Assembly: GCA_017471345.1 (NCBI GenBank)
Contig: JAFUUV010000002.1
Span: 1-49,479, forward strand
Source: Ruminococcus sp.
GTDB lineage: Bacteria; Bacillota; Clostridia; Oscillospirales; Acutalibacteraceae
Length of the DNA stretch: 49,479 bases
Direction of reading: 5' to 3'
In this document: in pieces, positions 9,124 through 49,303 of the stretch
Position numbering within the stretch: the first letter of the stretch is position 1
Layout: each line of letters begins with the position of its first letter
Notes under the pieces: model-generated
Seen by the model: only the letters and a program-made list of their open reading frames with translations
Database searches by the model: none
Told to the model about the DNA's origin: nothing
Program-made: the position numbers and the translations under genes

Positions 9124-9138
9124 TCTTATTGATCCATC

Positions 9139-9170: not shown

Positions 9171-9385
9171 GGTATATTGCCCTTGAGAGGGCAAGACTTA
9201 TCGCTGTCCTGTCAGGAGAACCGTTCCCTGTGCTTTCTGTTTTGCGGATTCAGGGAAACCATGAGCACACCGCGGACGCATCGAATTATGCAACGTTTAC
9301 AAATCAGGCTGAAAAACTTTGTTATCCAACCGAGGCGGATTTATGGTATACTGTAGGTGAACACAATCATGTGAGGAGGATGTTT

Positions 9386-22652: not shown

Positions 22653-23926
22653 TTGATATTAAGTTTTTACGTGAAAATCCCGACGCGGTCAGAGAGAACA
22701 TCAAAAAGAAATTTCAGGACAGCAAGCTGCCGCTTGTTGACGAGGTCATCAAGCTTGACGCGGAGAGCCGTGCCGCCAAGCAGAAGGCGGACTCCCTGCG
22801 CTCCAACCGCAACAAGCTTTCCAAGCAAATCGGTATGCTGATGGGACAGGGCAAAAAGGAAGAGGCCGCCGCGCTCAAGGCGGAGGTCGGCAAGCAGGCG
22901 GAGGAGTTAGCGGCGCTGGAAGCGCAGGAAACCGAGCTTTCCGCCAAGGTCACCGAAATCATGATGAAGATTCCGCAAATCATCGCGCCGACCGTCCCGA
23001 TTGGCAAGGACGACAGCGAAAACGTGGAGGTAGAGCGTTTCGGCGAGCCGGTTGTGCCCGATTTTGAAGTGCCCTATCACGCGGAAATTATGGAACGTCT
23101 CAACGGTCTTGACCTCGACGCCGCGCGCAAGGTTGCCGGCAACGGTTTCTATTATTTAATGGGCGACATCGCGCGTCTGCACAGCGCGGTCATTTCTTAC
23201 GCGCGTGATTTCATGATTGACCGCGGCTTCACCTACTGCGTGCCGCCGTTCATGATTCGCTCCGAGGTCGTCACCGGTGTCATGAGCTTCGCCGAAATGG
23301 ATTCCATGATGTACAAAATCGAGGGAGAGGACCTTTATCTCATCGGCACCAGCGAGCACTCCATGATTGGTAAGTTCATCAATACCATCAACAAGGAGGA
23401 GGCGCTGCCCTACACCCTCACCAGCTACTCTCCCTGCTTCCGCAAGGAAAAGGGTGCTCACGGCATCGAGGAACGCGGCGTTTACCGCATCCACCAGTTT
23501 GAAAAGCAGGAAATGATTGTTGTCTGCAAGCCCGAGGAAAGCGAGATGTGGTTCGACAAGCTCTGGCAGAACACCGTCGATTTGTTCCGTTCCATGGACA
23601 TTCCTGTCCGCACACTCGAGTGCTGCTCCGGCGACCTCGCGGATTTGAAGGTGCGTTCGCTCGACGTCGAGGCATGGTCTCCGCGTCAGCAGAAATACTT
23701 CGAGGTCGGCTCCTGCTCCAACCTCGGCGACGCGCAGGCACGCCGTCTGAAAATCCGCGTCAGCGGCAAGGGCGGCAAGTACTTTGCCCACACCCTCAAC
23801 AACACCGTCGTGGCGCCGCCGCGTATGCTGATTGCTTTCCTCGAAAACAACCTGAATGCGGACGGCACTGTCCGTATTCCCGAAGCGCTCCGTCCGTACA
23901 TGGGCGGCAAGGAAGTCATTGGATAA
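22649..23926 (+). CDS. serS: Serine--tRNA ligase
   Basis: MIDIKFLRENPD, coiled-coil arm, LIGTSE, CFRKE, HQFEKQE, HTLN. Confidence 0.96.
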   Translation: MIDIKFLRENPDAVRENIKKKFQDSKLPLVDEVIKLDAESRAAKQKADSLRSNRNKLSKQIGMLMGQGKKEEAAALKAEVGKQAEELAALEAQETELSAKVTEIMMKIPQIIAPTVPIGKDDSENVEVERFGEPVVPDFEVPYHAEIMERLNGLDLDAARKVAGNGFYYLMGDIARLHSAVISYARDFMIDRGFTYCVPPFMIRSEVVTGVMSFAEMDSMMYKIEGEDLYLIGTSEHSMIGKFINTINKEEALPYTLTSYSPCFRKEKGAHGIEERGVYRIHQFEKQEMIVVCKPEESEMWFDKLWQNTVDLFRSMDIPVRTLECCSGDLADLKVRSLDVEAWSPRQQKYFEVGSCSNLGDAQARRLKIRVSGKGGKYFAHTLNNTVVAPPRMLIAFLENNLNADGTVRIPEALRPYMGGKEVIG

Positions 23927-23936
23927 GGAGGTCATT

Positions 23937-24359
23937 ATGAATTGTCAAAACTGCGGTGCGACACTCAGCGGCACCGAAAGAGTCTGCCCCTACTGCGGTG
24001 CCGCTACCGGCGTCTCGCAGCCGAATACCAACTACGGCGATAACTACAACCGTCAGCAGCAGACACAGCACGTGTATCATCACCACAACGGCAGCGTGCA
24101 GCAGAGCAACTACGGCTACCACCCCGAGGAGCACGTCAGCACCGGCGGCTGGATTGGACGCTCCATTTTGCTGGCAATCCCGATTCTGAACGTTATCCTC
24201 CTGCTCGTCTGGGGTTTTGGAGGCAGCTCCAAGCGTTCGCTGGTCACCTACGCGAGAGCGCAGCTGATTCTCACTCTCATCGGTATCCTGATTGCGGTCA
24301 TCGTCGCCGCCATCGCCGCCGCGTCCGGCTGGAACTTCGCCGCCATGTTCAACAGATAA
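23937..24359 (+). CDS. Zinc-ribbon membrane protein
   Basis: CQNCG...CPYCG, Q/H/Y-rich linker, two hydrophobic segments; AAGGAGG RBS. Confidence 0.8.
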   Translation: MNCQNCGATLSGTERVCPYCGAATGVSQPNTNYGDNYNRQQQTQHVYHHHNGSVQQSNYGYHPEEHVSTGGWIGRSILLAIPILNVILLLVWGFGGSSKRSLVTYARAQLILTLIGILIAVIVAAIAAASGWNFAAMFNR

Positions 24360-24370
24360 ATACCAACCAA

Positions 24371-24403
24371 GCCCTGTCCTGAGCGGACAGGGCATTATTT
24401 TTT
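24371..24403 (+). terminator. Rho-independent terminator
   Basis: gccctgtcc-tgagc-ggacagggc followed by attatttttt. Confidence 0.8.
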
Positions 24404-24416
24404 GACAAATCATATA

Positions 24417-24625
24417 ATACTATTCTCAAATAAAATCCTTTAGCATCTGTCGTGTAAAATTCCGCATAACTGCGTTGTCGTCCTCGGAATCCGTCTCCGT
24501 TGTATGGGTGCGGTGCCCAAAATCAAAGATTTTGACCGCACCTCAAGGATTCCTGCGTCCTCCGCCTTGTTCTGCGGAATTTTCCATCGACATCTGTTTT
24601 AAAGTCTTTTATCAGAGAATAGTAT
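24417..24625. mobile_element. MITE-like ~209-bp imperfect palindromic element
   Basis: Perfect 11-bp terminal inverted repeats atactattctc/gagaatagtat, extending imperfectly inwards (aaaattccgca/tgcggaatttt, ggaatcc/ggattcc, ggtgcggt/accgcacc); no credible ORF. Confidence 0.6.
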
Positions 24626-24632
24626 AAAACAA

Positions 24633-24661
24633 TTGACAATAATCTGCGGTTACTGTATAAT
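24633..24661 (+). promoter_or_regulatory. Consensus sigma-A promoter of the vWA-tubulin operon
   Basis: TTGACA-17 bp-TATAAT. Confidence 0.8.
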
Positions 24662-24734
24662 GATGATGTATTTTTAGTCAAAATGTATGAAACTGTCGCA
24701 AGGACAGAAATCATTTTGACAAAAGGAGCGTTTC

Positions 24735-26978
24735 GTGTTGAAAAGCATCAAAATCACAATCGCCGTCGTTCTGTGCCTGTGCCTGTGTCTGCTGCCGGCA
24801 TTGGCGGGAACGGCGTTTTTAGCCGCCGAGAACGCGCAGTCAGCGAAAAAAGTAATCTCGGTTGTGTTTGACGACTCCGGCAGCATGACCGATGACGGCG
24901 TGGACAGAATGGGCTACGCCAACTACGCGATGCAAAGTCTGGTGGCGCTGCTCAATCCGCAGGACGAGCTCTACCTGACCTATATGAGTGACGAAAACAC
25001 CGCCCGTTCCGTCAATCTCGGCGACGTCGAGGGCGAGGTTGCCGCCGTGCGGAGCTGGAGCGGTCAGGGCGGTACGCCCTACAATTCCGTCAGCACCGCC
25101 GTGCAGGCGATTCAGGGGGTGGACGGCGACGCCGCCACACAGTATTGGCTGATGGTGTTCACCGACGGTCAGATGGAGGGCGTCACCGACGAAAACCCCA
25201 CCATGCACTGGATGGAAAAGCCGGAAATGCAAAAGGAGTTTGACAAGCTCAAGCAGACCGACATGGCAAACGGCACCAAGCTGAACGTCGCGTATATCGC
25301 GCTCGGCAAGGTGGAGAAGGACAGCGACGGAAACGACACGGTGTATGTGCTCAACGGCGACACCGCAAACGGTCTGTACACCTTCCACGCCGAGGACGGT
25401 GTTTCCATCCGCGATACGCTCAATCAGGTTGCCGGACTGATTTCCGGCAGAATGGACGCGGAAAACGTCAGCCAAAAGAGCGGCAACACCGTTTCCTTCT
25501 CTTCCAAGCTGCCGATGTATTCCGTTTCGGTGCTGTCGCATAATACGGACGCGACGGTCACTGCCGCTAAGGGCAGCGAGGCTGACCTCCTCGTCGAAAA
25601 GCAAATCAAGCTGGACACCACCGACTCGCCGCGCGTGACCACCAAGCTCATCGGCAACGCCGCCACGCTGCGCAACGCCGATTCCGGCGTTATCACCAAG
25701 GCGATTCCCAAGGGCGACTATGAGGTGACCTTTTCCAAGGACGTTAACATCAGCGATGTGCTGATTCAGTACGAGCCGGCAATCGGCATGAAAATGACCG
25801 TCGCCAAGGAAGGCGTGGTCGTCAAGGATACCGGCACCCTGCAAATCGGCGACAAGGTGGATATCGAAATCACCCCCGTCGTTGCCGGCACCAACGAGGA
25901 AATCCCTGAAAGCAATCTTCCCTCCGGCACGGAATGGAAGGTGGAATACAGGGTTGACGACGTCACCAAAAAAGAGGAGTCCGGAAAAAAGCTCTCCGGC
26001 GTCGAGCTGCTCGAGGGCGACAACAAGGTTGTCGGCACCATGAGTATGCCGGGCTTTGCGCCGCTGGTGGTGGAGATGGACTTCAACATCAACGTCCGTG
26101 TGTACGACCTCGGCATCGAGGTCATCCAGCCCGACGACCTCACCTATGAGCGCGGCAAGCTCGGCGAAATCGACGAGAACAACGCGATTGTCTTTCGCCT
26201 GACAGACGGCGGCAAGCCGCTGAGCAAGGAGGAGCTCGAGGCAGGCGGCATTTCTCTCACTGTTGACGATATCACAGTGGACGACAGCACCGCCGGCGCG
26301 GCAGGCTTCCTCGCGTTTCAGAACGCCAAAATGACGCTGCGGCAGAACGACGACGGCACCTTTACGCTGGTGCCCTCCATGCCGGTGCCGCTGATGCCCT
26401 ACATCATCAAGGGCGGCGACTACACCGTCACGGTCAAAACTACCGGCAACGACGATCCCGCCACCGCCACCGGCACGCTGCGTGTGGTGCCGTCTTTGGC
26501 GGACTGGCTGTTCCTGTTCCTGCTGCTGTTAGCGCTTGCGCTGATTGTCTATCTGATTTTCATTTTCTTTATTAAGTATAAATTCGACGGCAGACTGGTG
26601 CACTACGATGTTTACAAGCTCAAGGTGGACGGCAGCGGCACACTGATGCGCGCCTCGTCCTCGTCGATTGAGCTCAAACGCTTCGGCTGTCACCTCTTCG
26701 CGCCGACACGCGCCTGCTATGTCGTCTACAAGGGACTCAAAATCAAGGCGGGTCCCGACGGTACGGCGTACATCACCGGCAAATCCATTGCCGAAAAAAC
26801 CTACAGCTACCGCCAGAGCAAGGCGAATCCCGAACGAAACCTGAACGCGCTGATAAAACAGCTGCGCAGAACCAGAGATAAAAACGGCGAGTTTATCGCG
26901 TCCGATACCGAGCTGTCCAACACGCCGGTTTACTTCCGTTCCTCGGAAAACGACAAGATGATCTGGTCACTGAAATAA
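24735..26978 (+). CDS. Single-pass membrane protein with extracellular vWA (MIDAS) and Ig-like beta domains
   Basis: Signal peptide, VVFDDSGSM (DxSxS), GGT, FTDG; TM near aa 590-615; ~130-aa basic cytoplasmic tail. Confidence 0.85.
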   Translation: MLKSIKITIAVVLCLCLCLLPALAGTAFLAAENAQSAKKVISVVFDDSGSMTDDGVDRMGYANYAMQSLVALLNPQDELYLTYMSDENTARSVNLGDVEGEVAAVRSWSGQGGTPYNSVSTAVQAIQGVDGDAATQYWLMVFTDGQMEGVTDENPTMHWMEKPEMQKEFDKLKQTDMANGTKLNVAYIALGKVEKDSDGNDTVYVLNGDTANGLYTFHAEDGVSIRDTLNQVAGLISGRMDAENVSQKSGNTVSFSSKLPMYSVSVLSHNTDATVTAAKGSEADLLVEKQIKLDTTDSPRVTTKLIGNAATLRNADSGVITKAIPKGDYEVTFSKDVNISDVLIQYEPAIGMKMTVAKEGVVVKDTGTLQIGDKVDIEITPVVAGTNEEIPESNLPSGTEWKVEYRVDDVTKKEESGKKLSGVELLEGDNKVVGTMSMPGFAPLVVEMDFNINVRVYDLGIEVIQPDDLTYERGKLGEIDENNAIVFRLTDGGKPLSKEELEAGGISLTVDDITVDDSTAGAAGFLAFQNAKMTLRQNDDGTFTLVPSMPVPLMPYIIKGGDYTVTVKTTGNDDPATATGTLRVVPSLADWLFLFLLLLALALIVYLIFIFFIKYKFDGRLVHYDVYKLKVDGSGTLMRASSSSIELKRFGCHLFAPTRACYVVYKGLKIKAGPDGTAYITGKSIAEKTYSYRQSKANPERNLNALIKQLRRTRDKNGEFIASDTELSNTPVYFRSSENDKMIWSLK

Positions 26979-27000
26979 CGTATAGAAACAGAAAGGAAGC

Positions 27001-30000
27001 ATGACAATGTCAATGAATAAAGTACCCTCGCTGATTATCGGCATCGGCGGCATCGGCTGCCGCATCGCTGCCGGCATCAGTGATTTGCTCAGCGAAGAGG
27101 ACAGAGAATATGTCGGCGTCATCGGCATGGACACCAATATCAACGACCTCAAAACCATCGAATCACACAAGGTCAAGACCATCCAGACCAGCGACGACCG
27201 CAAGGTCATCGACTATCTCAATCTCAATCCGCAGTATCTTTCGTGGTTTCCTGCCAACAAGTTCACCGTTGGCAGAGGTATGCTCAACGGCGCCGGACAG
27301 ATTCGTTCCATCTCCCGTCTCGCCGCGATTGCCGCCGAGGAAAGCGGCCGCTTTACGCCGATTCGCGAGGAAATCAAGCGCATCCGCAAGCAAAAGGGAG
27401 AGGCGACCAACGGCAACCTCACTGTCATGATTGTCGGCTCCATCACCGGCGGTACCGGCGCGGGACTGTTCATCCAGCTTCCTTATTATATCCGTCAGAT
27501 TATGAAAAACACCGTCGGTCTGGAATCTATCATTATCCGCGGAATGTTCCTCGGACCGGACATCACCGCCGACGTGCAGCCCTCCAAGATTAACCGCAAC
27601 GCCGTCCGCGTCAACGGCTATGCCTGCCTCAAGGAGCTCAACGCGCTCTACATGACGCAGTACAGCGACAACAACAACCTCGATTTCGAGTATTACGAGC
27701 ACCGCAATCTCAAGGAGGAGCGCGACAACGAGGCGCAGATTAAGGGCAGACTCAACCAAGCCCTCAGCGACGCCTTTTATCCCGAGGACAGCTTCAACCT
27801 CGACATCACTCCCGAAGACACCGGCGTCATTGCGCAGAAGTCCCCGAACATCCCCTACGACTATCTGTATCTGATTGAGGGCACCACCCTCAGCGGCGAC
27901 GTCGGCAACGCCTCCATCGGCACCATCGAAAATCAGGTGTCGCGCATGGTCTTTACGCTGCTCTTTACCCCTGTCGTCGAAAACGCCCTCTCCGTCGAGG
28001 ACAACATGGTGCTGCAGGACATGGAAACCGGCGGCATGAACCGCTACTCAAGCGCCGGTATGTGCCGTCTGGTCTATCCCAACGCGCTTGCCAAGGATTA
28101 TGTCACCATGGCGCTCACGCGCGATTTGGTCAAGGACGAATGGCTGCTGATTGAAACCAGCTATCAGGAGGAGGTCAAGGACGCCAAGGACCGCCAGAAA
28201 ACCGACTCCCGCGTCGAAATTCCGCGTTTGCCGCGCAGCTACCGCGACATCTTTACCGCCAAGGTCAAGGACGGCACCTTCGGCAAGTTCTTCAAGGAAG
28301 CCTTCATCGAGGGCGAAAACGGTGTGCAGATTCCGCGCTCGCAAAAGTTCCTGCGCGTCATCTCCGACATGGTGGACGAGGTGCTCGAAAGCGACGAGGT
28401 GCAGGACGCCAAGGCTCCCTGCGAGGTCACGGACGAGAAGTTCCGCAAATTTGAGGACGCGACGAGCGAGGTGTTCCGTGTGGACGCCGCCGTCAGCGAG
28501 TATATGACCTTCGCCAAGAACATCATCAAGACCAAGGAGGGACAGATTGCCAACGAGCTGTTTCCGGTCAGCACCACCAGCCTTGCGTTCCGCAAAAACA
28601 ACGATAACTGCATTTACAACTGGCTGTACAACGTGCATCCGATTACCGCGCGTTTTTTGATTTATGATTTAATCGTCACCCTCGAGGAGCAAATCGAGGA
28701 GCTCGATTCCGAGTTTTTGGGCATCAACCTCAACGACTACCTCGATGAGGACTACGACCCCAAGGAGGAGGGCGTTCAGTCCGCCGACGCTGCCATCCGC
28801 AAAATTCAGGAGAGCAAAATGCCCTTTTTCGGCAACTTCAAGGATGACGCCAAGCGTTTGCACCGCGTCAAAATCAAGTACAAGAGCGTCATGGAAGGTC
28901 AGGTTGACCTGATTGACGACTATATCCGCGTCGGACTGCTCCTTTCCATCAGCCGCACCATGCTCAAGCGGCTGGATATGCTGGCGGAAAACTACCGCGT
29001 TTTCTTCCAGAGCATCAAGGACACCATTGAAGCCAACAACGAGCGCATCGAGCAGCTGGAGCACCTCGAAATGCCCCTCGGTCAGATCGGCGTTTACTGC
29101 TCCAAGGAGGCGTTCCGCAAAATGGCGGAGGAATACCGCCTCAACGGCGTCAACGACCTGCCCGACGAAACCAAAAAGGCGATTTTTGAGGAGCTGTTCC
29201 GCGTGTTCGCCAACGACTACAGCAACCGCACCGGCTCTCTTACCGAGCGTCAGAAGGAGCTTTACGCCATCGAGCGCAAAAAGGTGCTCGCGTCTGTCTT
29301 TCAGAAGGCGGTCATCGACACCATCCGCACCGATGTTTCCAAGAACGACGCCGGCATTGTCGATTTGAACATCCGTCAGGCGCTGCTCAAGGAGATGGAG
29401 CTGAAAAACAACATCTTCAAGGATTTTGCCGACGATTACGACAAGCTTGCCGACGAATATATCCGCGAGAAAATCCAGAGCGCTCTGTACGCCGCCGCGC
29501 CGATGTTGGCGGTGGACAGCTCTACCATGGCGGACAACACCGAGACCGTCTACCTTGCGGTCAATCCCGACTTTGCCGTGCTGTCCGAGGGCAAGCCCAA
29601 CGCCTCCGCCACTGCCGACCTGTATGTGCCGCAGGCGAACGAGGCGACCGATTACATCCGTCCCACCGTGTTAGTGGACGAGGAGTTCTCTCCCTATGAA
29701 ATCATCTGCTTCAAGGCGCGCTATAAGTTCTCCATCGAGGATTTAATCAAGTACCGCAACGGCACCGAAAACGAGCGCGCTTACGCCGAACGCATCCGTT
29801 CGCTCGACCGCGAGCCTGCCGGCGTCAACGATCCCAATGCCGGTATGACCGTTGTCAATCCGCATATCTGCAAGTACTGGCACGAAGAGGGCTTTTTGCC
29901 TGCCATTTCCTCCGCCGACAGAAGAAGAGCGCACACCGACCTGCTCAAAGCCTTTGTCTATTCGATGGGCTACGACCTCTTTGTCCGCGAAATGGACGAG

Positions 30001-30570
30001 AATATCCTTGACGAGAACAACAAGGGACGCCTGGTCTGGATGCTCCTTGCGCCCGGCGGCGCGGTGCCGGTCAAGTCGCGCGGTCAGGTCATCGGCAATT
30101 CCTATGCCAATCTCTTTGCTGCCCTGCCCTTCAACGGCAGAATTAAAAAATACATCCTGCTCTATGCCGAGGCAAAGCGCCACCGTACCAAGGGCTATGC
30201 CGACGTCGAGCAGCTCTATGAAAACATCCTCAGCGACAGCTTTGTGGAGGATTTGATTCAGCGCAGCGAGGAAAAGCTGAGCAACGACGACAATATTCTC
30301 GATATCTTCGTGGAGATGCGCGACTATATGCCCGTGTCCGAGTGGAAGGAGCTGTTTACCGGTCTGATTGAGGCGCTGTGGGAGTACACCGCCTATCTGT
30401 TCGATTACCATGAAAAGAAGGTCAACACTGCGGTCGGCGAAATCCTCAAGCAGATTCTGTACTACAGCGTCCCGGGCAGAAAAACGCGCAACAAGGAGCC
30501 TCTCTCCGCCAACGAAAAACGCGCCGTCGAGCAGATGGAGTACCTGTTCCGGCAGCGTTACAGAAAGTAA
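27001..30570 (+). CDS. Tubulin/FtsZ-like GTPase (Tubulin_2/FtsZl1-type) with long helical C-terminal region
   Basis: IIGIGGIG, MDT, GAGQIR, GSITGGTGAG tubulin signature, NGYACLKEL, PYDYLYL. Confidence 0.88.
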   Translation: MTMSMNKVPSLIIGIGGIGCRIAAGISDLLSEEDREYVGVIGMDTNINDLKTIESHKVKTIQTSDDRKVIDYLNLNPQYLSWFPANKFTVGRGMLNGAGQIRSISRLAAIAAEESGRFTPIREEIKRIRKQKGEATNGNLTVMIVGSITGGTGAGLFIQLPYYIRQIMKNTVGLESIIIRGMFLGPDITADVQPSKINRNAVRVNGYACLKELNALYMTQYSDNNNLDFEYYEHRNLKEERDNEAQIKGRLNQALSDAFYPEDSFNLDITPEDTGVIAQKSPNIPYDYLYLIEGTTLSGDVGNASIGTIENQVSRMVFTLLFTPVVENALSVEDNMVLQDMETGGMNRYSSAGMCRLVYPNALAKDYVTMALTRDLVKDEWLLIETSYQEEVKDAKDRQKTDSRVEIPRLPRSYRDIFTAKVKDGTFGKFFKEAFIEGENGVQIPRSQKFLRVISDMVDEVLESDEVQDAKAPCEVTDEKFRKFEDATSEVFRVDAAVSEYMTFAKNIIKTKEGQIANELFPVSTTSLAFRKNNDNCIYNWLYNVHPITARFLIYDLIVTLEEQIEELDSEFLGINLNDYLDEDYDPKEEGVQSADAAIRKIQESKMPFFGNFKDDAKRLHRVKIKYKSVMEGQVDLIDDYIRVGLLLSISRTMLKRLDMLAENYRVFFQSIKDTIEANNERIEQLEHLEMPLGQIGVYCSKEAFRKMAEEYRLNGVNDLPDETKKAIFEELFRVFANDYSNRTGSLTERQKELYAIERKKVLASVFQKAVIDTIRTDVSKNDAGIVDLNIRQALLKEMELKNNIFKDFADDYDKLADEYIREKIQSALYAAAPMLAVDSSTMADNTETVYLAVNPDFAVLSEGKPNASATADLYVPQANEATDYIRPTVLVDEEFSPYEIICFKARYKFSIEDLIKYRNGTENERAYAERIRSLDREPAGVNDPNAGMTVVNPHICKYWHEEGFLPAISSADRRRAHTDLLKAFVYSMGYDLFVREMDENILDENNKGRLVWMLLAPGGAVPVKSRGQVIGNSYANLFAALPFNGRIKKYILLYAEAKRHRTKGYADVEQLYENILSDSFVEDLIQRSEEKLSNDDNILDIFVEMRDYMPVSEWKELFTGLIEALWEYTAYLFDYHEKKVNTAVGEILKQILYYSVPGRKTRNKEPLSANEKRAVEQMEYLFRQRYRK

Positions 30571-30713
30571 CCCTCAATTGTTCATCAAACGCGTACACGG
30601 CAGGGCGTCGCCTTGCCGTACACGTTTATGGGCGACTCTGAAGACAGACAAAAATCTTTCACAGCTACGATACAAACCGCACCTTTTTCAGAGGTGCCCT
30701 TAAGGAGTTTCCG

Positions 30714-32726
30714 ATGCAAGACTGCTTTCGATTTCTGATCAATACCGATCAGTGCCTGAAAATGTCTAATTTCGATATATTCTTTTACAAGCTCCGCAGC
30801 CGCGACAAGCTGCACGTCAGTGAGGTGCAGCTGTTCGGCGACGACTTCGCCACCTCGCTGCGCGGCGCGATGGGCGACATTCGCTCCTATCTCAACAAGT
30901 ATCCCTACATGGTCGGCGACTTTCACATGATTGTCGCCACGCGCGTCAACTACGGCGAAAACACCTCCGCGTGGAAAAAGACGATTCTCTGCCGTCTGAT
31001 GCAGCTCTACTGCGAGTCCAACGCCGCGCGGGTTTATATCAATTCCAAGGAACGCAACGAAAGAACCCTCAGCCTGCTGATGCTCTACGACGCGGACTTT
31101 TCCGCGCAGCTGCAGCAGTTAGATGATTACCTTTCCGGCGCCCGTCTTGCCGGCGACTGCCGCCTGCTGTTTGCCGAGCTCGGCGTCGGCGAACAGGACG
31201 ACCTGCGCACACTTGACGAAGCCCTGCGGCGTTACGCCGCGCTTGAAGCGCACGACGAAGCGACCGTTGCCTTTCTCGGAGCGTTTTTGGAGCGCCACCG
31301 CGCCGAGTTAGAGGGCATGGAGCGCATCTGCGCGACCGCCGACAGCGACATCTCCGTTGCCGGCGACAGCTATGTGTTTCAGTCGCTGCTCTCGTTTTTG
31401 CCGGAGAGCTTTGCCAATTATCAGGTGTTCGAAACCTATGTGGACAAAAACAACCAGCGTGAAACCATCCTCAGCCTGCTGCGGATTGTCGAGTTCATCA
31501 ACCTCAGCACCGCCCGTGACGACGGCGAGGTGACGCGCCTTCCGGACGCGGTGCGCCGCAACTGGCAGCAGGCGTCGCGTGACGCCGAGCTGGAGCACCG
31601 CTATGCCAAGATGCTCTACGCCTATCAGAAGCGGCTGGAAAAAGCACGCGCCGACATCGAGGACTACAAGCTGGACTACAGCCATGTTGTGCGTCTGCCG
31701 GCAATTGAGATTCCCGCCGAGAGCGAAATTCAGGCGCATGACGGCTCCTTCACCGAGAGCAAGGGCGAGCACCGCTACTCGCGCGATATGCGCAAAAAGT
31801 TGGAGGTGTTCCGCGCGCGCGGTATTGTCGGCAAGGACATCCTCGAACGGTGGGACAAGCTCTACACCGACACCAACCGCACGCTCGAGGACATGGATCT
31901 CAGTCTGCGCCGCTTCGCGCAGGATTTGAGCCACACCTATTCCGGCGTCATCGAGAAGCGCAGCCGCGAGCACTACCGCTTGTCCTCCGCGCAGTTCGCC
32001 GCCGAGGAGAGCACCGCGCGTGAAGCCGAGGATTTGGAGTATGAGCGCGACAAAATTTACAATCGCCTGCGCAGTCCGCGCATGGATCCGGCGCTGCGGT
32101 TTCAGGACCGGCTCAACATGAGCGCCTCGCTCGAACAGGAGAACAAAAATATCCGCTACTGCGTGCGCTGCCTGAAAAGCGTCACCGCGCTGAACCTGAT
32201 TTTGCTGGCGGTCGGCATCACCGCCCTGACCGCCGTGCACTACACCCTTTTGCAGCCCTATGTGTTCGAGAACACCGCCATGGTGTTCCACTACTTCGTC
32301 TATCTGATGGCGATATTTGCCCTGATGATTCTTTCGTGGGGCATTCCGCGGCATTTCTTCCGCAAGAAAATCAAGGACAGCATCGACCGTCTGCTGCAAA
32401 ACCTTGATACCTATGCGGAGGCGTACTACGACAAGGCGCACTATTTTGTGGAGTACATCAACCTCCTCAACCGCCTCGACTACATCACGCGCAGCCACAG
32501 CCTGCGCCGCAGCGCGCTCGAGCGTTCCGCCACGCTGACCAAGGGCTGCCTGTGGCACAAGGTGCAAATTGACGGCCATCTCAACAAGCTGAAATTTTTC
32601 CACGGACTGATTGGCCTTTGTCATCCAGACGAGGTGGAAATCGACGAGCTTCCGGCGTCTCCGCTGACCGAAAACGGCAGCATCAGCGACGTCACCGACA
32701 GTCCGATTTACAGACCGCAGGGATAG
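30714..32726 (+). CDS. Uncharacterised coiled-coil protein with two TM segments
   Basis: AAGGAG RBS, host-like codon usage, helical charged region, hydrophobic hairpin near aa 490-545. Confidence 0.75.
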   Translation: MQDCFRFLINTDQCLKMSNFDIFFYKLRSRDKLHVSEVQLFGDDFATSLRGAMGDIRSYLNKYPYMVGDFHMIVATRVNYGENTSAWKKTILCRLMQLYCESNAARVYINSKERNERTLSLLMLYDADFSAQLQQLDDYLSGARLAGDCRLLFAELGVGEQDDLRTLDEALRRYAALEAHDEATVAFLGAFLERHRAELEGMERICATADSDISVAGDSYVFQSLLSFLPESFANYQVFETYVDKNNQRETILSLLRIVEFINLSTARDDGEVTRLPDAVRRNWQQASRDAELEHRYAKMLYAYQKRLEKARADIEDYKLDYSHVVRLPAIEIPAESEIQAHDGSFTESKGEHRYSRDMRKKLEVFRARGIVGKDILERWDKLYTDTNRTLEDMDLSLRRFAQDLSHTYSGVIEKRSREHYRLSSAQFAAEESTAREAEDLEYERDKIYNRLRSPRMDPALRFQDRLNMSASLEQENKNIRYCVRCLKSVTALNLILLAVGITALTAVHYTLLQPYVFENTAMVFHYFVYLMAIFALMILSWGIPRHFFRKKIKDSIDRLLQNLDTYAEAYYDKAHYFVEYINLLNRLDYITRSHSLRRSALERSATLTKGCLWHKVQIDGHLNKLKFFHGLIGLCHPDEVEIDELPASPLTENGSISDVTDSPIYRPQG

Positions 32727-32735
32727 GAGGTAAAA

Positions 32736-35700
32736 ATGAAAATCTTTTTGTTCTTCCTGTTCCTTGCCGCCGCGGCAGGTATCTTCTTTTTGCTCAACCT
32801 GCTGATGCGCCGTCTGGCGTATCCCATCCGCAAGCGCTATCTGCACGTGCGCACGGTGGTCGCGGTATTTTTGCTCAATTTAGCGCTGACCAACGTCTAT
32901 TCGGTGTCGCTGCTGATGAGCGGCGCCGACAGCGTCATCAACTCGCAGGCGCTGCGCGCGGTGTTTCTTGCCATGCTGCCAAACCGCTCCTACGAGCTGC
33001 TGTATATGATTTTGCTCCTGCTGCTGCTCAACTTCATGCTGACCGCCGCCGCCATCCTCACGGTCTCGCTCGTCCGGCTGTTCTTCCGGAACAAAACGGA
33101 GTTTGTGGACGTCGAGGAGTACTACGGCGTCGCGCGGCTCCTGCGCTTTCCGTGGGCAATCGCGCGGAAGTTCTACCGCACCGAGGGCGACGAGGTGCGC
33201 CTCACCGGTCGGGGCTTCACCCTCGGCTTGTGGATGCGCGGCATCAAAAACGTCTTTCTGATTCTCTGGGCAATCGAAACCATCGTCGCCGGTGTTTCCG
33301 TTCTCTGGGCGGGCGAGGAGTGGAACCAAGCGCTGCTTGTTGCGGTACGCGCGTGGTACATCCTGCCGATGGCGGGCTTTCTGCTGGCGCAGCAGATTCA
33401 GTTTTTCTTTGAAACCGAGTACGAGGGCGAAACCACGGTGTTTGATTCCGAGGCAATCGGCGAACGGCTCGAGGGCAGCGTGCAGCTGCTCATGGAGTTC
33501 CAGAAAAAAGCCTTCGAGGACGCCGACGCGCTGCTCTATGCGGAGTACGAGGAGGACGGCTCGGAAAAAAACGACGGCGCGCACGGCAACGACCTTGCCA
33601 ACACACAGATTCACGACTGCAGGCAGCCGGAGATTCTCAACATCATCGCCGGACAGGTCAAGAGCAGCGGCTGTGTGATGAACGCCGCCTACCTCAATGT
33701 GATTGTCGAGCTGCTCAACGGCAATTCCGTCAATGTCTGCGACTATGTCGAGGGCGAGTTTGTTCCGTATCTGGTCGCCTATCTCAATTTCTTTATGTCG
33801 CAGAGCAAAACCGCCCTGCTGCTTTGTCCCGACCGCGAGTTAGCGGACAGGCTTCGCGAAACCGTCAGCAAAACCCTTTCGTCCATGAACAGCCTGTACA
33901 GCGTCTGGAATGTCTGCGGCATCGACGATATCCGCAAGGATACCTATATCAACATGATTGTCTGCGCCTATGACGACTTCATCAAGCGCCGCGTCATCGA
34001 CAAATGCGGCGACTTCGCGGAAAACCTTGCCGCTGTTGTCTGTGCGGACTGCGGCAACATCTTTTCGCAGGACAGCGTGCACCTCGAGCTGCTCTTCAAC
34101 AGTCTCGGCAAAATCAAGGCGCGTCCGCGCTATATCATGCTGACCGGCGAGGACAACGACTCGCTGCGTACCGCGATGGAAAATTATATCAAGGAGGAGC
34201 TGTATCCTGCCAACAACCTTTACCGCCGTCCCAAAACCGGTCTGATGATCTGGCGCGAGGAAAGCAGCAGCCGCCTGCAGCGCTACCTCGGCATCGGCAA
34301 TACCCTTTCGCCGTATCTCGGCACTGCGCTGCCGCTGGCGCTTGTCGCCGCCAAGCGCGACCTGCCGCGCGTGTACATCATTCCCGACCGCGGCAGAGCC
34401 GACAAGTCCTACCGCGACGCGATGACCATGACCGCCAAGGAGGTCAAAAGCTACCTCGGCTCCGGTCTCAACCTCGACAGCGTGATTCGCTGCAAGCCCT
34501 CCGAGGCGCTGGAGCAGCAGGATATTTCCATGATTATCGCCTACGACACCCAGTGCAATTTCTTCAACGACCTCTGGCGCTGGATGAAGTACGGCGGACG
34601 CGACGGCACACTGGTGCACATCATCTCGCCGCCGTACCTGCTGCGCGAGTATTTTGCCGCCAATTTCCGCGACAAGAAGCTCTACCTCAAAAACAACGAA
34701 TTTGACGCGCTGATTCCCTACAGCCTTGTCATGCGCACCAGCCACCTGTTGGTCATGCTGGTTTCGCTGTGCAACAGCGGCATGAGCGAGGACGAGCTGA
34801 CCGACGTCATCAAGCGCTACGACTGGGACTACGGCAGCGTGGAGGAGCTGCTCACCGAGTGTCTGCGCGTGCTCTACAGCGACGAGGAGGTGCACAACGT
34901 CTACGAGTGCTTCCACTTCGAGACCGTCAAGACCTTCAGCGAGGAGAAAAACGGCTTTGTCTGTCAGACGCGCATCACCCTTACCGACGACACCGTCCGC
35001 GAACGCCTGAACGCCAAAATCGGCTTCGCGTCCATCATCCGCAACAACAACCGTGCCGATACGCTCACGGTTTTCAAAAATAACATTTACAACTACTTCC
35101 TGCGCGGTCAGGTGATTGCCTACAAGGGCAATTTCTACCGCGTTGCCACGGTGACCGACGGCATGGTCTATGTCGAGCAGGAGCTTTCGCGCGATTTGCT
35201 GCAATACTACCCGATTTCGCGCTTCACCTTCGACAGCGATTTCCACATCAAGGACGCCTGCGTCGATACCGATACCATCGACTTCAATCTCTACGCCGTT
35301 TCCGTCACGCGCGAGATTTTCGGCTACTGGTCGAGCAACTGCGGCACCGATTTTTCAAACGGTCATTTTGTACAAGTCAACGACCTCCGCGACGAAACCG
35401 GCGCTCCCGTCAGAACAAGTATGCGCCATGTCAGCGTGCTCGAGCTCAACATCCGCCGCACCGCTCTCGGCGACCGCCCTGTCAATGCCGCCGTCACGCT
35501 CTGCTGCCTGCTCAACGGCTTGTTCCGCACGCTGTTTCCGGCATCCTATCAAAACCTGTTTGCCGCCGCCACGGAAGCGCCGGATGATTCGCTGCTGAGC
35601 GAGGTGCTCAGTCGCGGCACGCAGGCGGATATCAATTCCATTATCTGGAGCACCATTCCCACCTGCGTCAACGCGCGCAAGGTCGATCCCGCCTTTGTTT

Positions 35701-36650
35701 CTATTTATATTATCGAGTTCAGCTGCGTCGAATACGGCATGACGCAGATTCTCTGCAACAAGTTCACCTCCGTTCTCGCCATGGTGCGCGAGTACCTCGA
35801 CTGGTACCTCCGCTCGCAGGTCGCCGACGCCGCGCAGCCGGACACCTCCGACGTCATCCGCGGCAGAAACCTGCACTTTGGTCAGGATACCATTCCCGAT
35901 ATCTTTGCCTGTCAGGAGCTTCTTGACTTCTGCGCCAAGGCGGCTCCCGAGGCAGGGGAGGACTACGAGGTGCGCGACGATGACGCCGTCGAGGGCTACT
36001 CCAGCTGCACCTTCTGCGGCAAGGAATCCCTCTTTGTCACCCGCATGGAGGACGGCAGAGTCATGTGCGGCAGCTGCAAGGAGCACCAGCTCACACGCCG
36101 CGAGGAGGTGCGCGAGCTGTTTGCCGACACCGTCGCGTTTATGGAGAAGGGCTATCACATCAACCTGCCGCGCAAGCTGCACGTCCGCTTCCGCTCCGCC
36201 GCGTCCATCCGCAAGGCGGCAGGCGATACCGTGGGCGGCAGAATCCTCGGTTTTTATAATTCCGCCAACCGCCAGCTGTGGCTGGAATCGCGCGGTCCCA
36301 AGGTCGCCATGCTCAGCACCCTGATTCACGAGCTGACGCACGCGTGGCAGTACCGCGAGCTGGATATGCGCGCGCTGCAGCGCAAGCTCGGCGGAGAGGG
36401 TTTCCTGACGCTCATCGAGGGACACGCCGTTTACACCGAAATCAACACCCTGCGCAAGCACAACGAAACCGAATATGCCGACCGTCTCGAGCGCATCACG
36501 CTGCTGCGTGACGACGAATATGGCAAGGGCTATGTCATGGTGCGCGACGCCTTCCGTGACTTTGAGCCGGACGCCGAAAACGTCAATCCGTTTACGGCAA
36601 TCAAAAAGCTTGCGGACAGCATTCTGAAAGGCGAGGTGAGCACACCGTGA
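32736..36650 (+). CDS. Multi-TM protein with a degenerate SF2 helicase-like core and a C-terminal CxxC Zn-finger + HEXXH (DA1-like) metallopeptidase
   Basis: About 5 N-terminal TMs; ALLLCPDRELA (motif Ia-like); CTFC...DGRVMCGSC; LIHELTHAWQ...LIEG...DEYGKGY; GGAGG RBS. Confidence 0.75.
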   Translation: MKIFLFFLFLAAAAGIFFLLNLLMRRLAYPIRKRYLHVRTVVAVFLLNLALTNVYSVSLLMSGADSVINSQALRAVFLAMLPNRSYELLYMILLLLLLNFMLTAAAILTVSLVRLFFRNKTEFVDVEEYYGVARLLRFPWAIARKFYRTEGDEVRLTGRGFTLGLWMRGIKNVFLILWAIETIVAGVSVLWAGEEWNQALLVAVRAWYILPMAGFLLAQQIQFFFETEYEGETTVFDSEAIGERLEGSVQLLMEFQKKAFEDADALLYAEYEEDGSEKNDGAHGNDLANTQIHDCRQPEILNIIAGQVKSSGCVMNAAYLNVIVELLNGNSVNVCDYVEGEFVPYLVAYLNFFMSQSKTALLLCPDRELADRLRETVSKTLSSMNSLYSVWNVCGIDDIRKDTYINMIVCAYDDFIKRRVIDKCGDFAENLAAVVCADCGNIFSQDSVHLELLFNSLGKIKARPRYIMLTGEDNDSLRTAMENYIKEELYPANNLYRRPKTGLMIWREESSSRLQRYLGIGNTLSPYLGTALPLALVAAKRDLPRVYIIPDRGRADKSYRDAMTMTAKEVKSYLGSGLNLDSVIRCKPSEALEQQDISMIIAYDTQCNFFNDLWRWMKYGGRDGTLVHIISPPYLLREYFAANFRDKKLYLKNNEFDALIPYSLVMRTSHLLVMLVSLCNSGMSEDELTDVIKRYDWDYGSVEELLTECLRVLYSDEEVHNVYECFHFETVKTFSEEKNGFVCQTRITLTDDTVRERLNAKIGFASIIRNNNRADTLTVFKNNIYNYFLRGQVIAYKGNFYRVATVTDGMVYVEQELSRDLLQYYPISRFTFDSDFHIKDACVDTDTIDFNLYAVSVTREIFGYWSSNCGTDFSNGHFVQVNDLRDETGAPVRTSMRHVSVLELNIRRTALGDRPVNAAVTLCCLLNGLFRTLFPASYQNLFAAATEAPDDSLLSEVLSRGTQADINSIIWSTIPTCVNARKVDPAFVSIYIIEFSCVEYGMTQILCNKFTSVLAMVREYLDWYLRSQVADAAQPDTSDVIRGRNLHFGQDTIPDIFACQELLDFCAKAAPEAGEDYEVRDDDAVEGYSSCTFCGKESLFVTRMEDGRVMCGSCKEHQLTRREEVRELFADTVAFMEKGYHINLPRKLHVRFRSAASIRKAAGDTVGGRILGFYNSANRQLWLESRGPKVAMLSTLIHELTHAWQYRELDMRALQRKLGGEGFLTLIEGHAVYTEINTLRKHNETEYADRLERITLLRDDEYGKGYVMVRDAFRDFEPDAENVNPFTAIKKLADSILKGEVSTP

Positions 36651-37702
36651 GAATATGGAGGTCCGTCGCCGCCTGTGTTCTCTGCGCGGCAGTGACAGTG
36701 CCGGCGGCAGGCTGCAAGGTCAATCCGGACAAAATGATGGTCAGCGGCGCCTCGCAATTTGCCGAGGGCAAGGAGGAAGAGGATTATTCTCCGGTCAATT
36801 CCGGCGCGCTGCTCCAAAAGCTGATTGACCGCTACACCGGCGCGATGGAAAATCCCGACCCCAAGCCGATGTCGGACGACGAGTTTCAGAAATTACAGAA
36901 AAAAATCCAAACGCAAACCCAGCCGCCCACCACCGCGCCTGTGGAGGAGGAAAGTGAGCCGTCTACCGAGCCGCCTGCCACCGAGCCGGCGCCTCCGGAC
37001 ACATACACGGTCGGCGACTACGAGGACTTCAAGGCGATGCTGCTGCAGGCGTACACCAACACCGACGAGGTGATTACCTGCACGCTCACCGGCTCCTATG
37101 CCGTCAAGGCGGACGACTACCAACTGGCGCACGAGGAGCTGCGTCGGGATTACTCCATCGAAACCTGCTGTGTGGAAAGGTGGAGCTGGTATCAGCAGGG
37201 CAGCACCTACACCGTGCAGATCAGCTACAGTCTGCCGACGGAGGACGTCAAAAGGCTCAAAACCGAAACCGACCGTCTCGCCAAGGAGGCGGTCGCCAAA
37301 ATCGACACCGAGGGAAAAACCGAGCGTGAAATCGTCGCGCAGGTCAACGACTATCTCTGCGACCTTGTCACCTACACCGCCGGATCCTCGCCGTTTCCGC
37401 CGCTGTCCTACACCGCCTACGGCGCCTTTGCCGACGGCGACGCGGTCTGTGAGGGTTACACCCGTGCCGCCAAGCTGATGCTCAACGCCTTGGGCATCAA
37501 GGCGCTGCACGTGCACGGGGAATGTACCAACGGCGAGCTGCACGCGTGGAACCTTGTCAATGTGGACGGCGCGTGGTACCACCTTGACGTCACATGGAAC
37601 GACAGCTCGCGCAGCCGAGAGGACTACTTCCTCGTCAGCGACGACTATATGCACGTCAGCCGTGACTGGAACGCCGGCCTCTATCCGGCAGCCAACGCCT
37701 GA
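36647..37702 (+). CDS. Transglutaminase-like (Cys-His-Asp) lipoprotein
   Basis: AAGC lipobox-like site, P/T/E linker, AVCEGY, HAWN, HLDVTWND; GTGA overlap with the upstream gene. Confidence 0.85.
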   Translation: MRIWRSVAACVLCAAVTVPAAGCKVNPDKMMVSGASQFAEGKEEEDYSPVNSGALLQKLIDRYTGAMENPDPKPMSDDEFQKLQKKIQTQTQPPTTAPVEEESEPSTEPPATEPAPPDTYTVGDYEDFKAMLLQAYTNTDEVITCTLTGSYAVKADDYQLAHEELRRDYSIETCCVERWSWYQQGSTYTVQISYSLPTEDVKRLKTETDRLAKEAVAKIDTEGKTEREIVAQVNDYLCDLVTYTAGSSPFPPLSYTAYGAFADGDAVCEGYTRAAKLMLNALGIKALHVHGECTNGELHAWNLVNVDGAWYHLDVTWNDSSRSREDYFLVSDDYMHVSRDWNAGLYPAANA

Positions 37703-37774
37703 CAGCCTGCTACTGACAAAAATGTCATTCCGACTCAGGCAGATGAGGTGTTATTTTTTTCAGGTATATACAAC

Positions 37775-37822
37775 AAGGGCTTGGCTCTACTCATGTGTTG
37801 AGTGTGAGCCAAGCCCCTTTTT
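37775..37822. terminator. Probable bidirectional terminator between convergent genes
   Basis: gggcttggctc...gagccaagccc stem followed by a T-run on the plus strand. Confidence 0.7.
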
Positions 37823-38768
37823 ATGGCTGTGCATCGTCTTGATCAAAATTTGAATGCTTGGTGATGTAAATCGGGCGATCCTTGGTTTCCATGTAAATCC
37901 TGCCGATGTATTCGCCGAGGATGCCGATGGACATCTCTGTCAGTCCCCCGAGGAACAGCACCGCGCAGAGGGTGGTGACGTAGCCGGGCGTTTGAATCCC
38001 GAAAAAGAGCGTCTGAATCAGGGTGATGATGATGTACACCAACGAGAGCAAAAAGATAATCGCGCCCATCACCGCGGTAAAGCGCAGCGGCGTCACGGAA
38101 AAGCAGGTGATGCCGTCAATCGCGTACCGGAACAGCGACGAAAACTTCCACGACGATTGTCCCAGCTCGCGGTCAACCGTTTTGAAGGTAATCCATTTGG
38201 TGTGAAAACCAACCCACGAGAAAATGCCCTTGGAAAAGCGCTGCACCTCGCTGAGCTCGAGAATCGCGTTGACCATCTGGCGCGTCATCATGCGGAAATC
38301 CATGGCGCCGTAGGGGTTTTTGACGTCGGTCATGCGGTTGGAAATACGGAAAAAGAGCTTCGAAAACGCGCCTCTGAAAAAGCTTTCGCCCTCGCGCTCG
38401 TCGCGCTTGGTGGCGCAGCAGTCATAGCCCTGCTCCATCGCGTCAAGCATCTGCGGAAACACCGCCGGCGGATGCTGCAGGTCGGCGTCCATCACCACCA
38501 CGTAGTCCGCGTCGCAGTGCTGCAGACCGGCGTACATCGCCGCCTCCTTGCCGAAGTTGCGCGAAAAGGAGATATATTTGATGTTGTCGAACCGCGCGGC
38601 AAGCTTTTTGATGACCAGATAGGTTTTGTCCTTGCTGCCGTCGTTGACCAGTATGTAGCGGAAGGAATAGGCGGGCAGGGTGTCGATGACCTTGTTGGTC
38701 TCCAGCACAAAATGCTCCAGCCCCTCCTCCTCGTTGTAGCAGGGAACGACCAAATCAATTGTTTTCAC
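37821..38768 (-). CDS. GT2 undecaprenyl-phosphate glycosyltransferase (GtrB/CsbB-like)
   Basis: VVPCYNEE, NDGSKD, SRNFGKEAA, DADLQHPP, two C-terminal TMs, GEYIGRIY.ETKDRP. Confidence 0.92.
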   Translation of the reverse strand: MKTIDLVVPCYNEEEGLEHFVLETNKVIDTLPAYSFRYILVNDGSKDKTYLVIKKLAARFDNIKYISFSRNFGKEAAMYAGLQHCDADYVVVMDADLQHPPAVFPQMLDAMEQGYDCCATKRDEREGESFFRGAFSKLFFRISNRMTDVKNPYGAMDFRMMTRQMVNAILELSEVQRFSKGIFSWVGFHTKWITFKTVDRELGQSSWKFSSLFRYAIDGITCFSVTPLRFTAVMGAIIFLLSLVYIIITLIQTLFFGIQTPGYVTTLCAVLFLGGLTEMSIGILGEYIGRIYMETKDRPIYITKHSNFDQDDAQP

Positions 38769-43328: not shown

Positions 43329-43333
43329 CGCTT

Positions 43334-48769: not shown

Positions 48770-49303
48770 ATGAAAAAGCTGATTGCCGCGCTGCTTGCGG
48801 CTGTGACAATAGCCGCCTTCGCCACCGGCTGTATGGGCGGCACACCGGCTCCCAAGGTCGCGACCTCCGACGAGGCGCAAAGCAAGGACGCTGCCGATTA
48901 CGAAAATACCTTTGCCGGTCTCTGCAACTACCTCTGGGCATACGGCTATATCAATCCGCACGAGGATAACGCCGATATTACCTATATCACCATGGACTAC
49001 GACCTCATCGGCGCGGTCAAGGGCAGAAAATATACCGAGCAGACCAAAAAGAAGGCTTCCATCGAAATCTATGAGTTCGATACCGCCAAGTCCAACGCCA
49101 CCGCCGACGAGGTGATCAACAGCATCAGGAAGGACGGCACCTTCACCATCCTCGATTTGCCGCCCGTCAAGGCGACGCTCTCCAACAACGGCAAGTATAT
49201 GATGGTGTATCAGGACACCACCATCAAGGAGGACGACCCCGAAAACGAGGCGTACAAGCTCCGCGAGGAAATCACCACCCTGTTCAAGGAGTTCCATCAG
49301 TAA
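48770..49303 (+). CDS. Uncharacterised lipoprotein
   Basis: MKKLIAALL...ATGC lipobox; AGGAAGGA RBS. Confidence 0.8.
   Translation: MKKLIAALLAAVTIAAFATGCMGGTPAPKVATSDEAQSKDAADYENTFAGLCNYLWAYGYINPHEDNADITYITMDYDLIGAVKGRKYTEQTKKKASIEIYEFDTAKSNATADEVINSIRKDGTFTILDLPPVKATLSNNGKYMMVYQDTTIKEDDPENEAYKLREEITTLFKEFHQ

What the first reader, a model, noticed from the sequence alone, without database searches (positions are those of the whole stretch)
24633..37822. Candidate undescribed membrane system: vWA - tubulin-like GTPase - coiled-coil TM - dead helicase/DA1-like protease - transglutaminase operon
Seen: five co-oriented genes under one consensus promoter (24633-24661) with gaps of 22, 143 and 9 bp and a GTGA overlap, ending at a terminator, and placed after the core parB-serS block. 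Established: divergent FtsZ/tubulin families (FtsZl1 of Makarova and Koonin; Pfam Tubulin_2) occur in operons with vWA and membrane proteins and have been proposed to act in membrane remodelling or biological conflict. Not known to me: their coupling to a helicase-fold/DA1-type metallopeptidase fusion plus a transglutaminase lipoprotein. Inference: a trans-envelope sensing and response machine (outside vWA/TGase, inside GTPase polymer and regulated protease), possibly for anti-phage defence or cell contact.
Basis: partly seen in the sequence, partly recalled or inferred. Interest (0 to 1): 0.88.

Follow-up and report, generated by a model that had tools for sequence, protein, structure and literature searches.

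The report
Tubulin-like operon with membrane pseudo-helicase protease
This is a real, conserved five-gene cluster of gut Clostridia that links a predicted surface receptor and a bacterial tubulin relative to a membrane protein built from an ATP-dead DNA-repair helicase fold plus a predicted zinc protease; its four-gene core was tabulated by computer in 2010, and it likely works as a membrane alarm-and-cut machine in conflicts with phages or rival cells.

Summary
Observation confirmed: five genes, the stated gaps, a 12/12 promoter and a terminator hairpin. It is not undescribed. The first four genes are homologous to the vWA - FtsZl1 - 'B5' - 'B12 (zincin + Zn finger, membrane)' operon of Ruminococcus lactaris in the 2010 supplement of Makarova and Koonin. 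The order is kept in 35 of 37 loci long enough to test. Beyond that paper, a confident model (pLDDT 89.5) shows gene 4 carries a whole MrfA/DUF1998 helicase fold lacking Walker A (0 of 48) and DExH, followed by an intact HExxH zincin; 'DA1-type' is unproven. The transglutaminase gene is optional: next gene in 27, fused in 4, absent in 47 of 95 loci (17 too short); here it is a lipoprotein. TIR genes lie near 12 of 50 loci against about 0.1 expected, favouring a conflict role, but this window's own flanks are housekeeping and PADLOC has no match. No function is shown. The scan found this system before on other genomes (8 notes, fused or twin-tubulin forms). Verdict: new variant of a predicted, untested kind.

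The parts
24405..24624 (.). 218-bp palindromic repeat element just upstream of the promoter; polymorphic, not part of the system
   Evidence: missing from a contig of another study that otherwise spans 23794-37930; folds as one long hairpin, 25 further partial blastn matches in the genome
24633..24661 (+). sigma-70-type consensus promoter (TTGACA-17-TATAAT)
   Evidence: activity not shown
24735..26978 (+). gene 1, 747 aa: N-terminal signal/TM (7-25), vWA domain with complete MIDAS, predicted beta-rich stalk, TM (592-610), about 135-aa predicted cytoplasmic tail
   Evidence: 25% identity, E 4e-14, to the 732-aa R. lactaris vWA protein
27001..30570 (+). gene 2, 1189 aa: FtsZl1 / Tubulin_2 GTPase domain (11-378) plus long predicted helical extension
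   Evidence: Pfam E 2.6e-44; G14/G16/G17/G19, D44-T45, G97-A98, G150-G151-T152-G153-G155 invariant in 32 sequences; only copy in the genome
30571..30713 (+). 143-bp spacer with a strong unique stem-loop without a T-run; only 18-32 bp in three of four close relatives
30714..32726 (+). gene 3, 670 aa ('B5' of the 2010 table): no family, two-TM hairpin at 490-540 between predicted helical/coiled-coil arms; fastest-evolving member
   Evidence: profile-profile match to the R. lactaris clade, probability 96.6, E 6.7e-10 over 167 columns around the TM hairpin only
32736..36650 (+). gene 4, 1304 aa ('B12'): five predicted TM helices (5-217), MrfA/DUF1998-type pseudo-helicase, Cys4 ribbon, zincin
33603..35945 (+). 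pseudo-helicase body of gene 4 (residues 290-1070): matches the whole length of MrfA; motifs I, II, III, VI lost
   Evidence: Foldseek 6ZNP E 2.9e-20; VIA Z 18.8, rmsd 6.6, 613 aligned; motif mapping
36006..36341 (+). Cys4 ribbon (C1091, C1094, C1111, C1114) to HELTH (1198-1202); third ligand candidate E1228 lies downstream
   Evidence: all invariant in 54 close homologues; DUF6782 metallopeptidase E 7.7e-7 on the domain alone
36647..37702 (+). gene 5, 351 aa: predicted lipoprotein (lipobox Cys23) with transglutaminase-like core and intact Cys268-His299-Asp314; clade-specific accessory
37777..37822 (+). terminator-like hairpin plus T5, between gene 5 and the convergent glycosyltransferase gene

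Best explanation
The locus is a conserved operon of the vWA-FtsZl1-B5-B12 type that likely encodes a membrane-anchored sensor-switch-protease machine used in biological conflict (phage or rival-cell attack). Shown: gene order, intact MIDAS, GTP-binding loops, HExxH and Cys-His-Asp residues, and a MrfA-type helicase fold without ATPase motifs. Inferred steps: (1) the outward vWA protein binds a ligand or senses envelope damage; (2) its tail and the two-TM gene-3 protein would recruit the FtsZl1 GTPase to the inner membrane face, where GTP-dependent assembly sets a threshold; (3) the ATP-dead helicase ring of gene 4 would act as a scaffold or ligand-gated clamp (nucleic acid or protein) that keeps its C-terminal zincin off until the switch trips; (4) the zincin would then cut a cytoplasmic target such as a regulator or effector; (5) the transglutaminase-like lipoprotein is an optional papain-fold protease or cross-linker that would act on the envelope side in this clade.
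For: Genes 1-3 lie upstream of gene 4 in 35 of 37 loci with at least 7 kb upstream (near-duplicate loci included) although proteins are only 10-25% identical across clades. Catalytic or ligand residues are invariant; 100 of the best 150 representatives keep HExxH. Fold; loss of motifs: 0 of 48 GK[ST], 1 of 48 DE, mapped against six intact MrfA-like helicases. Patchy spread typical of accessory genes: 8 of 300 family genomes for gene 2 and 0 of 2 same-genus genomes, 6 of 398 class genomes, 0 of 400 phylum genomes with the narrow profile, yet 945 clusters at 50% identity. TIR_2 genes at E<=1e-8 lie in the flanks of 12 of 50 loci (233 kb) against about 0.08 expected from 87 matches in 101 genomes (mean genome size assumed); also FtsK/EssC-like genes in 6, CARF-nuclease-like in 4, Tox-GHH in 3 loci. 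Tubulin+vWA gene sets are predicted conflict systems in PMC7159879 (section 29 read).
Against: No PADLOC match for any of the five proteins. This window's flanks are serS, a glycosyltransferase and YfhO, not a defence island; many relatives also sit by housekeeping genes. The TIR excess has no control of other accessory operons, kin are not independent (about 8 lineages), the background is one class only, and one flank (L095) was stretched by a non-adjacent transglutaminase. No variable effector is fused to the core, unlike the systems of PMC7159879. The DNA-contacting motifs Ia, IVa and V are also eroded, so nucleic-acid sensing is doubtful. The zincin is degenerate in 6 and not on the chain in 44 of 150 representatives (split or truncated, not resolved). 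No expression evidence.
Confidence: 0.45

Rival explanations
1. A membrane-remodelling or cell-contact machine as proposed for FtsZl1 operons in 2010: a vWA adhesin anchors a GTP-driven polymer that shapes the membrane (vesicles, contacts), gene 4 is a structural scaffold, and the two peptidase-fold enzymes trim or cross-link components.
For: Three membrane proteins, a lipoprotein and a tubulin relative with long helical extension; perfect consensus promoter suggests steady expression; housekeeping flanks here; PMC2875224 (main text parts 1-2 of 5 read).
Against: Very patchy distribution, absent from 2 of 2 same-genus genomes searched; conflict-type neighbours in relatives; the paper itself could not align the T6-T7 elements needed for FtsZ-type filaments.
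Confidence: 0.25
2. A trans-membrane signalling cascade that controls gene expression or secretion by regulated proteolysis (for example cutting an anti-sigma factor or switching on a neighbouring type VII secretion/toxin locus) rather than acting as defence itself.
For: FtsK/EssC-like genes follow the operon in 6 of 50 loci, with YukD and WXG100 in one and toxin domains in four; a small protein with an HxxxCxxC stretch (anti-sigma-like, motif recalled) lies by the operon in L024 and a similar one in L028.
Against: No such gene beside this window's operon; the partner of the small protein has no Pfam sigma-factor hit; neighbours differ from locus to locus.
Confidence: 0.18
3. Gene 5 is a passenger: transglutaminase-like lipoproteins are common in these genomes and one was captured downstream of a four-gene system without functional coupling.
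For: Absent from 47 of 78 scorable loci including R. lactaris; the genome holds at least four other such genes, two 4.4 kb downstream; 5 of 5 control genomes carry 2-6.
Against: Present as next gene in all 12 scorable related loci of the window's clade and in the window, forming its own clade of 13 (support 100); the same fold is fused to gene 4 in 4 loci and 5 of 150 representatives, in one case inside the linker before the zincin, and in L027, L028, L112 it accompanies a dead zincin.
Confidence: 0.12

Closest known systems
vWA-FtsZl1 predicted operons, B5/B12 subtype (Makarova and Koonin 2010, PMC2875224, Additional file 5: RUMLAC_01529-01526; BACCAP_04124-04121)
   Same: [quoted passage not shown]
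   Different: The table does not recognise the helicase fold; B12 is absent from the main text and from Additional file 6; no transglutaminase gene is listed; the window belongs to a separate clade about 20% identical.
GAP1-N2 double-GTPase conflict systems with tubulin and vWA (Kaur et al. 2020, PMC7159879)
   Same: Tubulin_2 protein with helical extension plus membrane vWA protein in Firmicutes; predicted membrane-near, thresholded assembly.
   Different: No DO-GTPase2 in the genome, no GAP1 family hit in 37 gene-3 proteins, one tubulin and one vWA instead of two each; has pseudo-helicase/zincin instead.
MrfA/YprA DUF1998 SF2 DNA helicases (B. subtilis MrfA, PDB 6ZNP; PMC7797055); also in DISARM and Druantia
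   Same: Whole-length fold match, model residues 2-782 to chain 33-749; profile homology E 5e-5.
   Different: Membrane-anchored, Walker A, DExH, SAT and QxxGRAGR motifs lost, no Cys4 cluster in the MZB-equivalent part, zincin appended; no PADLOC match.
DA1-like zincin peptidases (Pfam PF12315)
   Same: Cys-ribbon followed by HExxH and a downstream EG motif (resemblance recalled).
   Different: Only 1 of 10 domains hits PF12315 (E 0.026); best family is DUF6782.

Membership tests
FtsZl1 (Tubulin_2) | N-terminal FtsZ-like domain with T1 and T4 glycine loops | tested here: met
   PF13809 E 2.6e-44; loops invariant in 32 sequences
FtsZl1 (Tubulin_2) | long coiled-coil and helical C-terminal part, about 1100 aa | tested here: inconclusive
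   length 1189 aa fits; no coiled-coil predictor or model was run on gene 2
FtsZl1 (Tubulin_2) | adjacent vWA gene with intact MIDAS | tested here: met
FtsZl1 (Tubulin_2) | GTP hydrolysis or polymerisation | not testable with these tools
   I found no experimental report
B5/B12 operon subtype (2010 table) | order vWA-FtsZl1-B5-B12 with homologous proteins | tested here: met
GAP1-N2 double-GTPase systems | DO-GTPase and GAP1 genes in the neighbourhood | tested here: not met
   no PF19993 match in the 99.8% complete genome; no GAP1 family among Pfam hits of the five proteins or of 37 gene-3 homologues
MrfA/DUF1998 helicases | dual RecA core plus WH-OB-CON-MZB accessory domains | tested here: met
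   Foldseek E 2.9e-20; VIA Z 18.8-19.2, rmsd 5.7-6.6, 503-613 aligned
MrfA/DUF1998 helicases | Walker A, DExH and motif VI for ATP hydrolysis | tested here: not met
   0 of 48 GK[ST], 1 of 48 DE; mapping
MrfA/DUF1998 helicases | four-cysteine Zn site in the MZB domain | tested here: not met
   no PF09369 hit; the only CxxC pairs are at 436, 1091, 1111, the last two beyond the MrfA-aligned part
DISARM / Druantia / other PADLOC systems | match to system-specific profiles and partner genes | tested here: not met
   0 of 5 proteins hit PADLOC 2.0.0 at E<=0.1; library dates from 2023
DA1-like peptidases | PF12315 match with LIM-like zinc module | tested here: inconclusive
   1 of 10 at E 0.026; the zincin was not folded and searched alone
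Transglutaminase-like (papain fold) | Cys-His-Asp triad in Transglut_core | tested here: met
   C268, H299, D314; whether it cuts or cross-links is not testable here

The most novel reading that the evidence does not exclude
A new class of immune signalling machine in which a tubulin-family GTPase assembly, triggered through a surface vWA receptor, switches on a protease through a domesticated, ATP-dead DNA-repair helicase that still clamps nucleic acid (for instance DNA being injected through the membrane), with interchangeable output enzymes: a zincin inside, and a papain-fold enzyme that is fused inside in some lineages and exported as a lipoprotein in this one.
Probability: 0.15. Interest if true: 0.88.

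Novelty: new variant of a known kind. Interest (0 to 1): 0.52.

Why it matters
FtsZl1 proteins are a widespread branch of the tubulin superfamily for which I found no experimental function. This subtype gives testable handles: four kinds of invariant active-site residues, a high-confidence model of a large pseudo-helicase family (945 clusters), and a cultured commensal (R. lactaris) that carries the core. If the conflict reading holds it would add a tubulin-switched protease to bacterial immunity and show a repair helicase reused as a membrane-bound non-enzymatic clamp.

Tried and rejected
Single-sequence structure prediction was useless (pLDDT 34). Sequence searches of the PDB found nothing significant for genes 1-4. 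Complex prediction of the gene-2 GTPase domain with the first 480 residues of the pseudo-helicase gave no verdict. Gene 3 as a decayed second tubulin: profile comparison probability 1.1%, rejected; its atlas model is poor. Two RNA runs gave only scattered low-depth pieces: no statement on expression or co-transcription. No match of gene 4 in plasmid or phage collections. PF12315 search rang nowhere, controls included, so it shows nothing. 'Transglutaminases were recruited independently': an AU test rejected one origin (p 0.0013), but not once the non-adjacent L095 gene was added (p 0.195; other groupings p 0.06-0.27); unresolved, though the gene-4 tree puts transglutaminase-bearing loci in two separate places (FastTree). 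A first tree missed the window's own gene and was redone (which still lacks 8 named rows). The zincin had no fold match in whole-model searches, which is no evidence. Literature searches found no experimental study of this operon type; subscription papers are mostly outside the library, and the neighbourhood source data of PMC7159879 were not among the 2 supplement files held, so a listing there cannot be excluded.
Full report
Observation. The five ORFs, their gaps (22, 143, 9 bp, 4-bp overlap), the 12/12 promoter at 24633-24661 and a terminator-like hairpin at 37777-37822 are in the sequence. The block follows parB-serS, a small zinc-ribbon/TM gene and a 218-bp palindromic repeat, and is followed by a convergent glycosyltransferase and YfhO. 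A contig from another study covers 23794-37930 in one piece, lacking only the repeat. The organism is a gut bacterium by the run labels; close loci are titled Clostridia.

Gene by gene. Gene 1 has a signal/TM stretch, a vWA domain whose five MIDAS positions are invariant in 26 homologues, and a TM helix at 592-610. Gene 2 is a Tubulin_2/FtsZl1 protein with invariant nucleotide loops in 32 homologues. Gene 3 has a two-helix membrane hairpin and no family; only four positions are at least 90% conserved in 37 sequences. Gene 4 has five predicted TM helices; charge bias (6 and 11 K/R in loops 1 and 3, none in loop 4) puts the long C-terminal part in the cytoplasm (inference). An AlphaFold2 model of residues 289-1304 from 96 sequences reached pLDDT 89.5, pTM 0.78. 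Its best match is the DUF1998 helicase MrfA (Foldseek E 2.9e-20, next other protein 7.5e-8; VIA Z 18.8, 613 residues aligned over model 2-782, where DEAD-box domains tie in Z but cover about 190-310 residues). The language-model atlas independently listed DEAD/Helicase_C/MZB clusters at 0.94-0.95. Profile alignment with six intact MrfA-like proteins maps motif I to DYVEGEF, II to ADCG, III to TGE and VI to RWMKYGGR; none of 48 family members keeps GK[ST]. DNA-contact motifs named in PMC7797055 (section 15 and passages read) are only partly kept, so nucleic-acid binding is open. A Cys4 ribbon, HELTH and E1228 are invariant in 54 close homologues. The DA1 label is a resemblance only. Gene 5 has a lipobox, seen in its clade relatives too, and an intact triad.

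Co-occurrence. Gene 3 lies upstream in 45 of 48 with at least 2.5 kb, genes 2-3 in 42 of 44 with 5 kb, genes 1-3 in 35 of 37 with 7 kb (near-identical loci not collapsed). The transglutaminase is the next gene in 27, fused in 4, absent in 47, not scorable in 17. On the gene-4 tree the window's clade (15 rows, support 98) always has the lipoprotein gene where scorable; its sister (support 95) has the domain fused and HExxH lost; a second group with a separate gene is nested among loci without one. Among the best 150 of 945 representatives, 100 keep HExxH, 6 have it degenerate, 44 lack the zincin on the chain, 5 carry a fused transglutaminase. In several loci the ribbon-zincin is a separate gene. 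So the core is four genes and the output end is modular. Whether the transglutaminases have one origin is unresolved.

Prior description. Additional file 5 of PMC2875224 (parts 1 and 3 of 4 read, plus term searches) lists RUMLAC_01529-01526 and BACCAP_04124-04121 as vWA, FtsZl1, B5, B12, with B12 noted as a membrane zincin with Zn finger. Loci L049-L058 have those gene sizes; exact look-up names their 732-aa and 678-aa proteins as R. lactaris, and the window's proteins are homologous to them. The main text (parts 1-2 of 5 read, whole text term-searched) never mentions zincin, helicase or transglutaminase. The GAP1-N2 systems of PMC7159879 (section 29 and passages read) share tubulin and vWA but need a DO-GTPase and GAP1, which are missing; a twin-tubulin locus with DO-GTPase2 turned up separately (L030). 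PMC9871819 (passages) only uses Tubulin_2 proteins as an outgroup. Other papers were seen as search listings only.

Function. No PADLOC or NCBIfam family names the system. It is patchy and not found on plasmids or phages. I scanned flanking ORFs within 5 kb of 50 loci (233 kb, 178 ORFs; 123 of the 131 not scanned earlier were sent to Pfam, 101 selected ORFs to PADLOC). TIR_2 occurs in 12 loci against about 0.08 expected from the class background, or about 1 from the TIR-richest genome; FtsK/EssC-like, CARF-nuclease, STAND/TPR, KAP, type III CRISPR and Tox-GHH genes recur. The caveats are real: kin, an unmatched background, no accessory-operon control, and housekeeping flanks in this window. 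I therefore put conflict-related sense-switch-cut at 0.45, membrane remodelling or contact at 0.25, regulatory proteolysis at 0.18, and gene 5 as passenger at 0.12.

Earlier notes of this scan (unchecked) reached the same family on other genomes, mostly fused or twin-tubulin forms; I had the 2010 table, the fusion and the atlas lead before reading them and tested the MrfA claim myself. What this window adds is the form with a live zincin and a separately exported lipoprotein. Verdict: new variant of a predicted, experimentally untested kind; interest 0.52.

Noticed in passing
window 24405-24624: Palindromic repeat element (MITE/REP-like) inserted 8 bp upstream of the -35 box; absent in another strain, partial copies on about 20 other contigs of the genome.
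   Followed up: partly
window 42090-43328 and 43217-44590: Two further transglutaminase-like genes after YfhO; the first lies outside the operon-linked lipoprotein clade, the second was not placed.
   Followed up: partly
window 9038-12916: 1292-aa protein with BspA-type LRR, InlB-like repeats and a C-terminal dockerin.
   Followed up: no
window 3531-4949 and 48770-49303: ORFs of 472 and 177 aa without any Pfam hit.
   Followed up: no
L022:12171-17976; L085, L095, L097, L101 downstream: Operon directly followed by FtsK/EssC-like gene, small WXG-like genes and toxin domains (papain-fold toxin 1, Tox-GHH); YukD and WXG100 in L101.
   Followed up: partly
L024:17925-19033; L027:3915-4778; L028:15237-16347: A 268-288 aa gene without Pfam hit, in L024 and L028 paired with a ~100-aa protein (HxxxCxxC stretch seen in L024), sits beside the operon in two clades; possible sigma/anti-sigma pair.
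   Followed up: no
P0086 (2049 aa); P0057, P0062, P0068; P0060: Transglutaminase domain inserted between pseudo-helicase and live zincin, appended after a live zincin, or present with no zincin on the chain.
   Followed up: partly
L030:5588-20000: Different FtsZl1 locus in the same family: vWA, two tubulin-like genes and a DO-GTPase2 gene, i.e. the GAP1-N2-like type.
   Followed up: no
L026:5062-10575; L062: Decayed copies: vWA plus split tubulin without genes 3-4 (L026); a 421-aa zincin-end fragment plus transglutaminase without upstream genes (L062).
   Followed up: no
L033:14234-15874, L073:2920-4686, L027:19261, L028:2-1159: Membrane proteins directly after the operon, with RyR-domain hits in L033 and L073, in several clades.
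   Followed up: no
L025:250-3725: Type III-B CRISPR genes (Cmr4-6) and a CARF nuclease just upstream of the operon.
   Followed up: no
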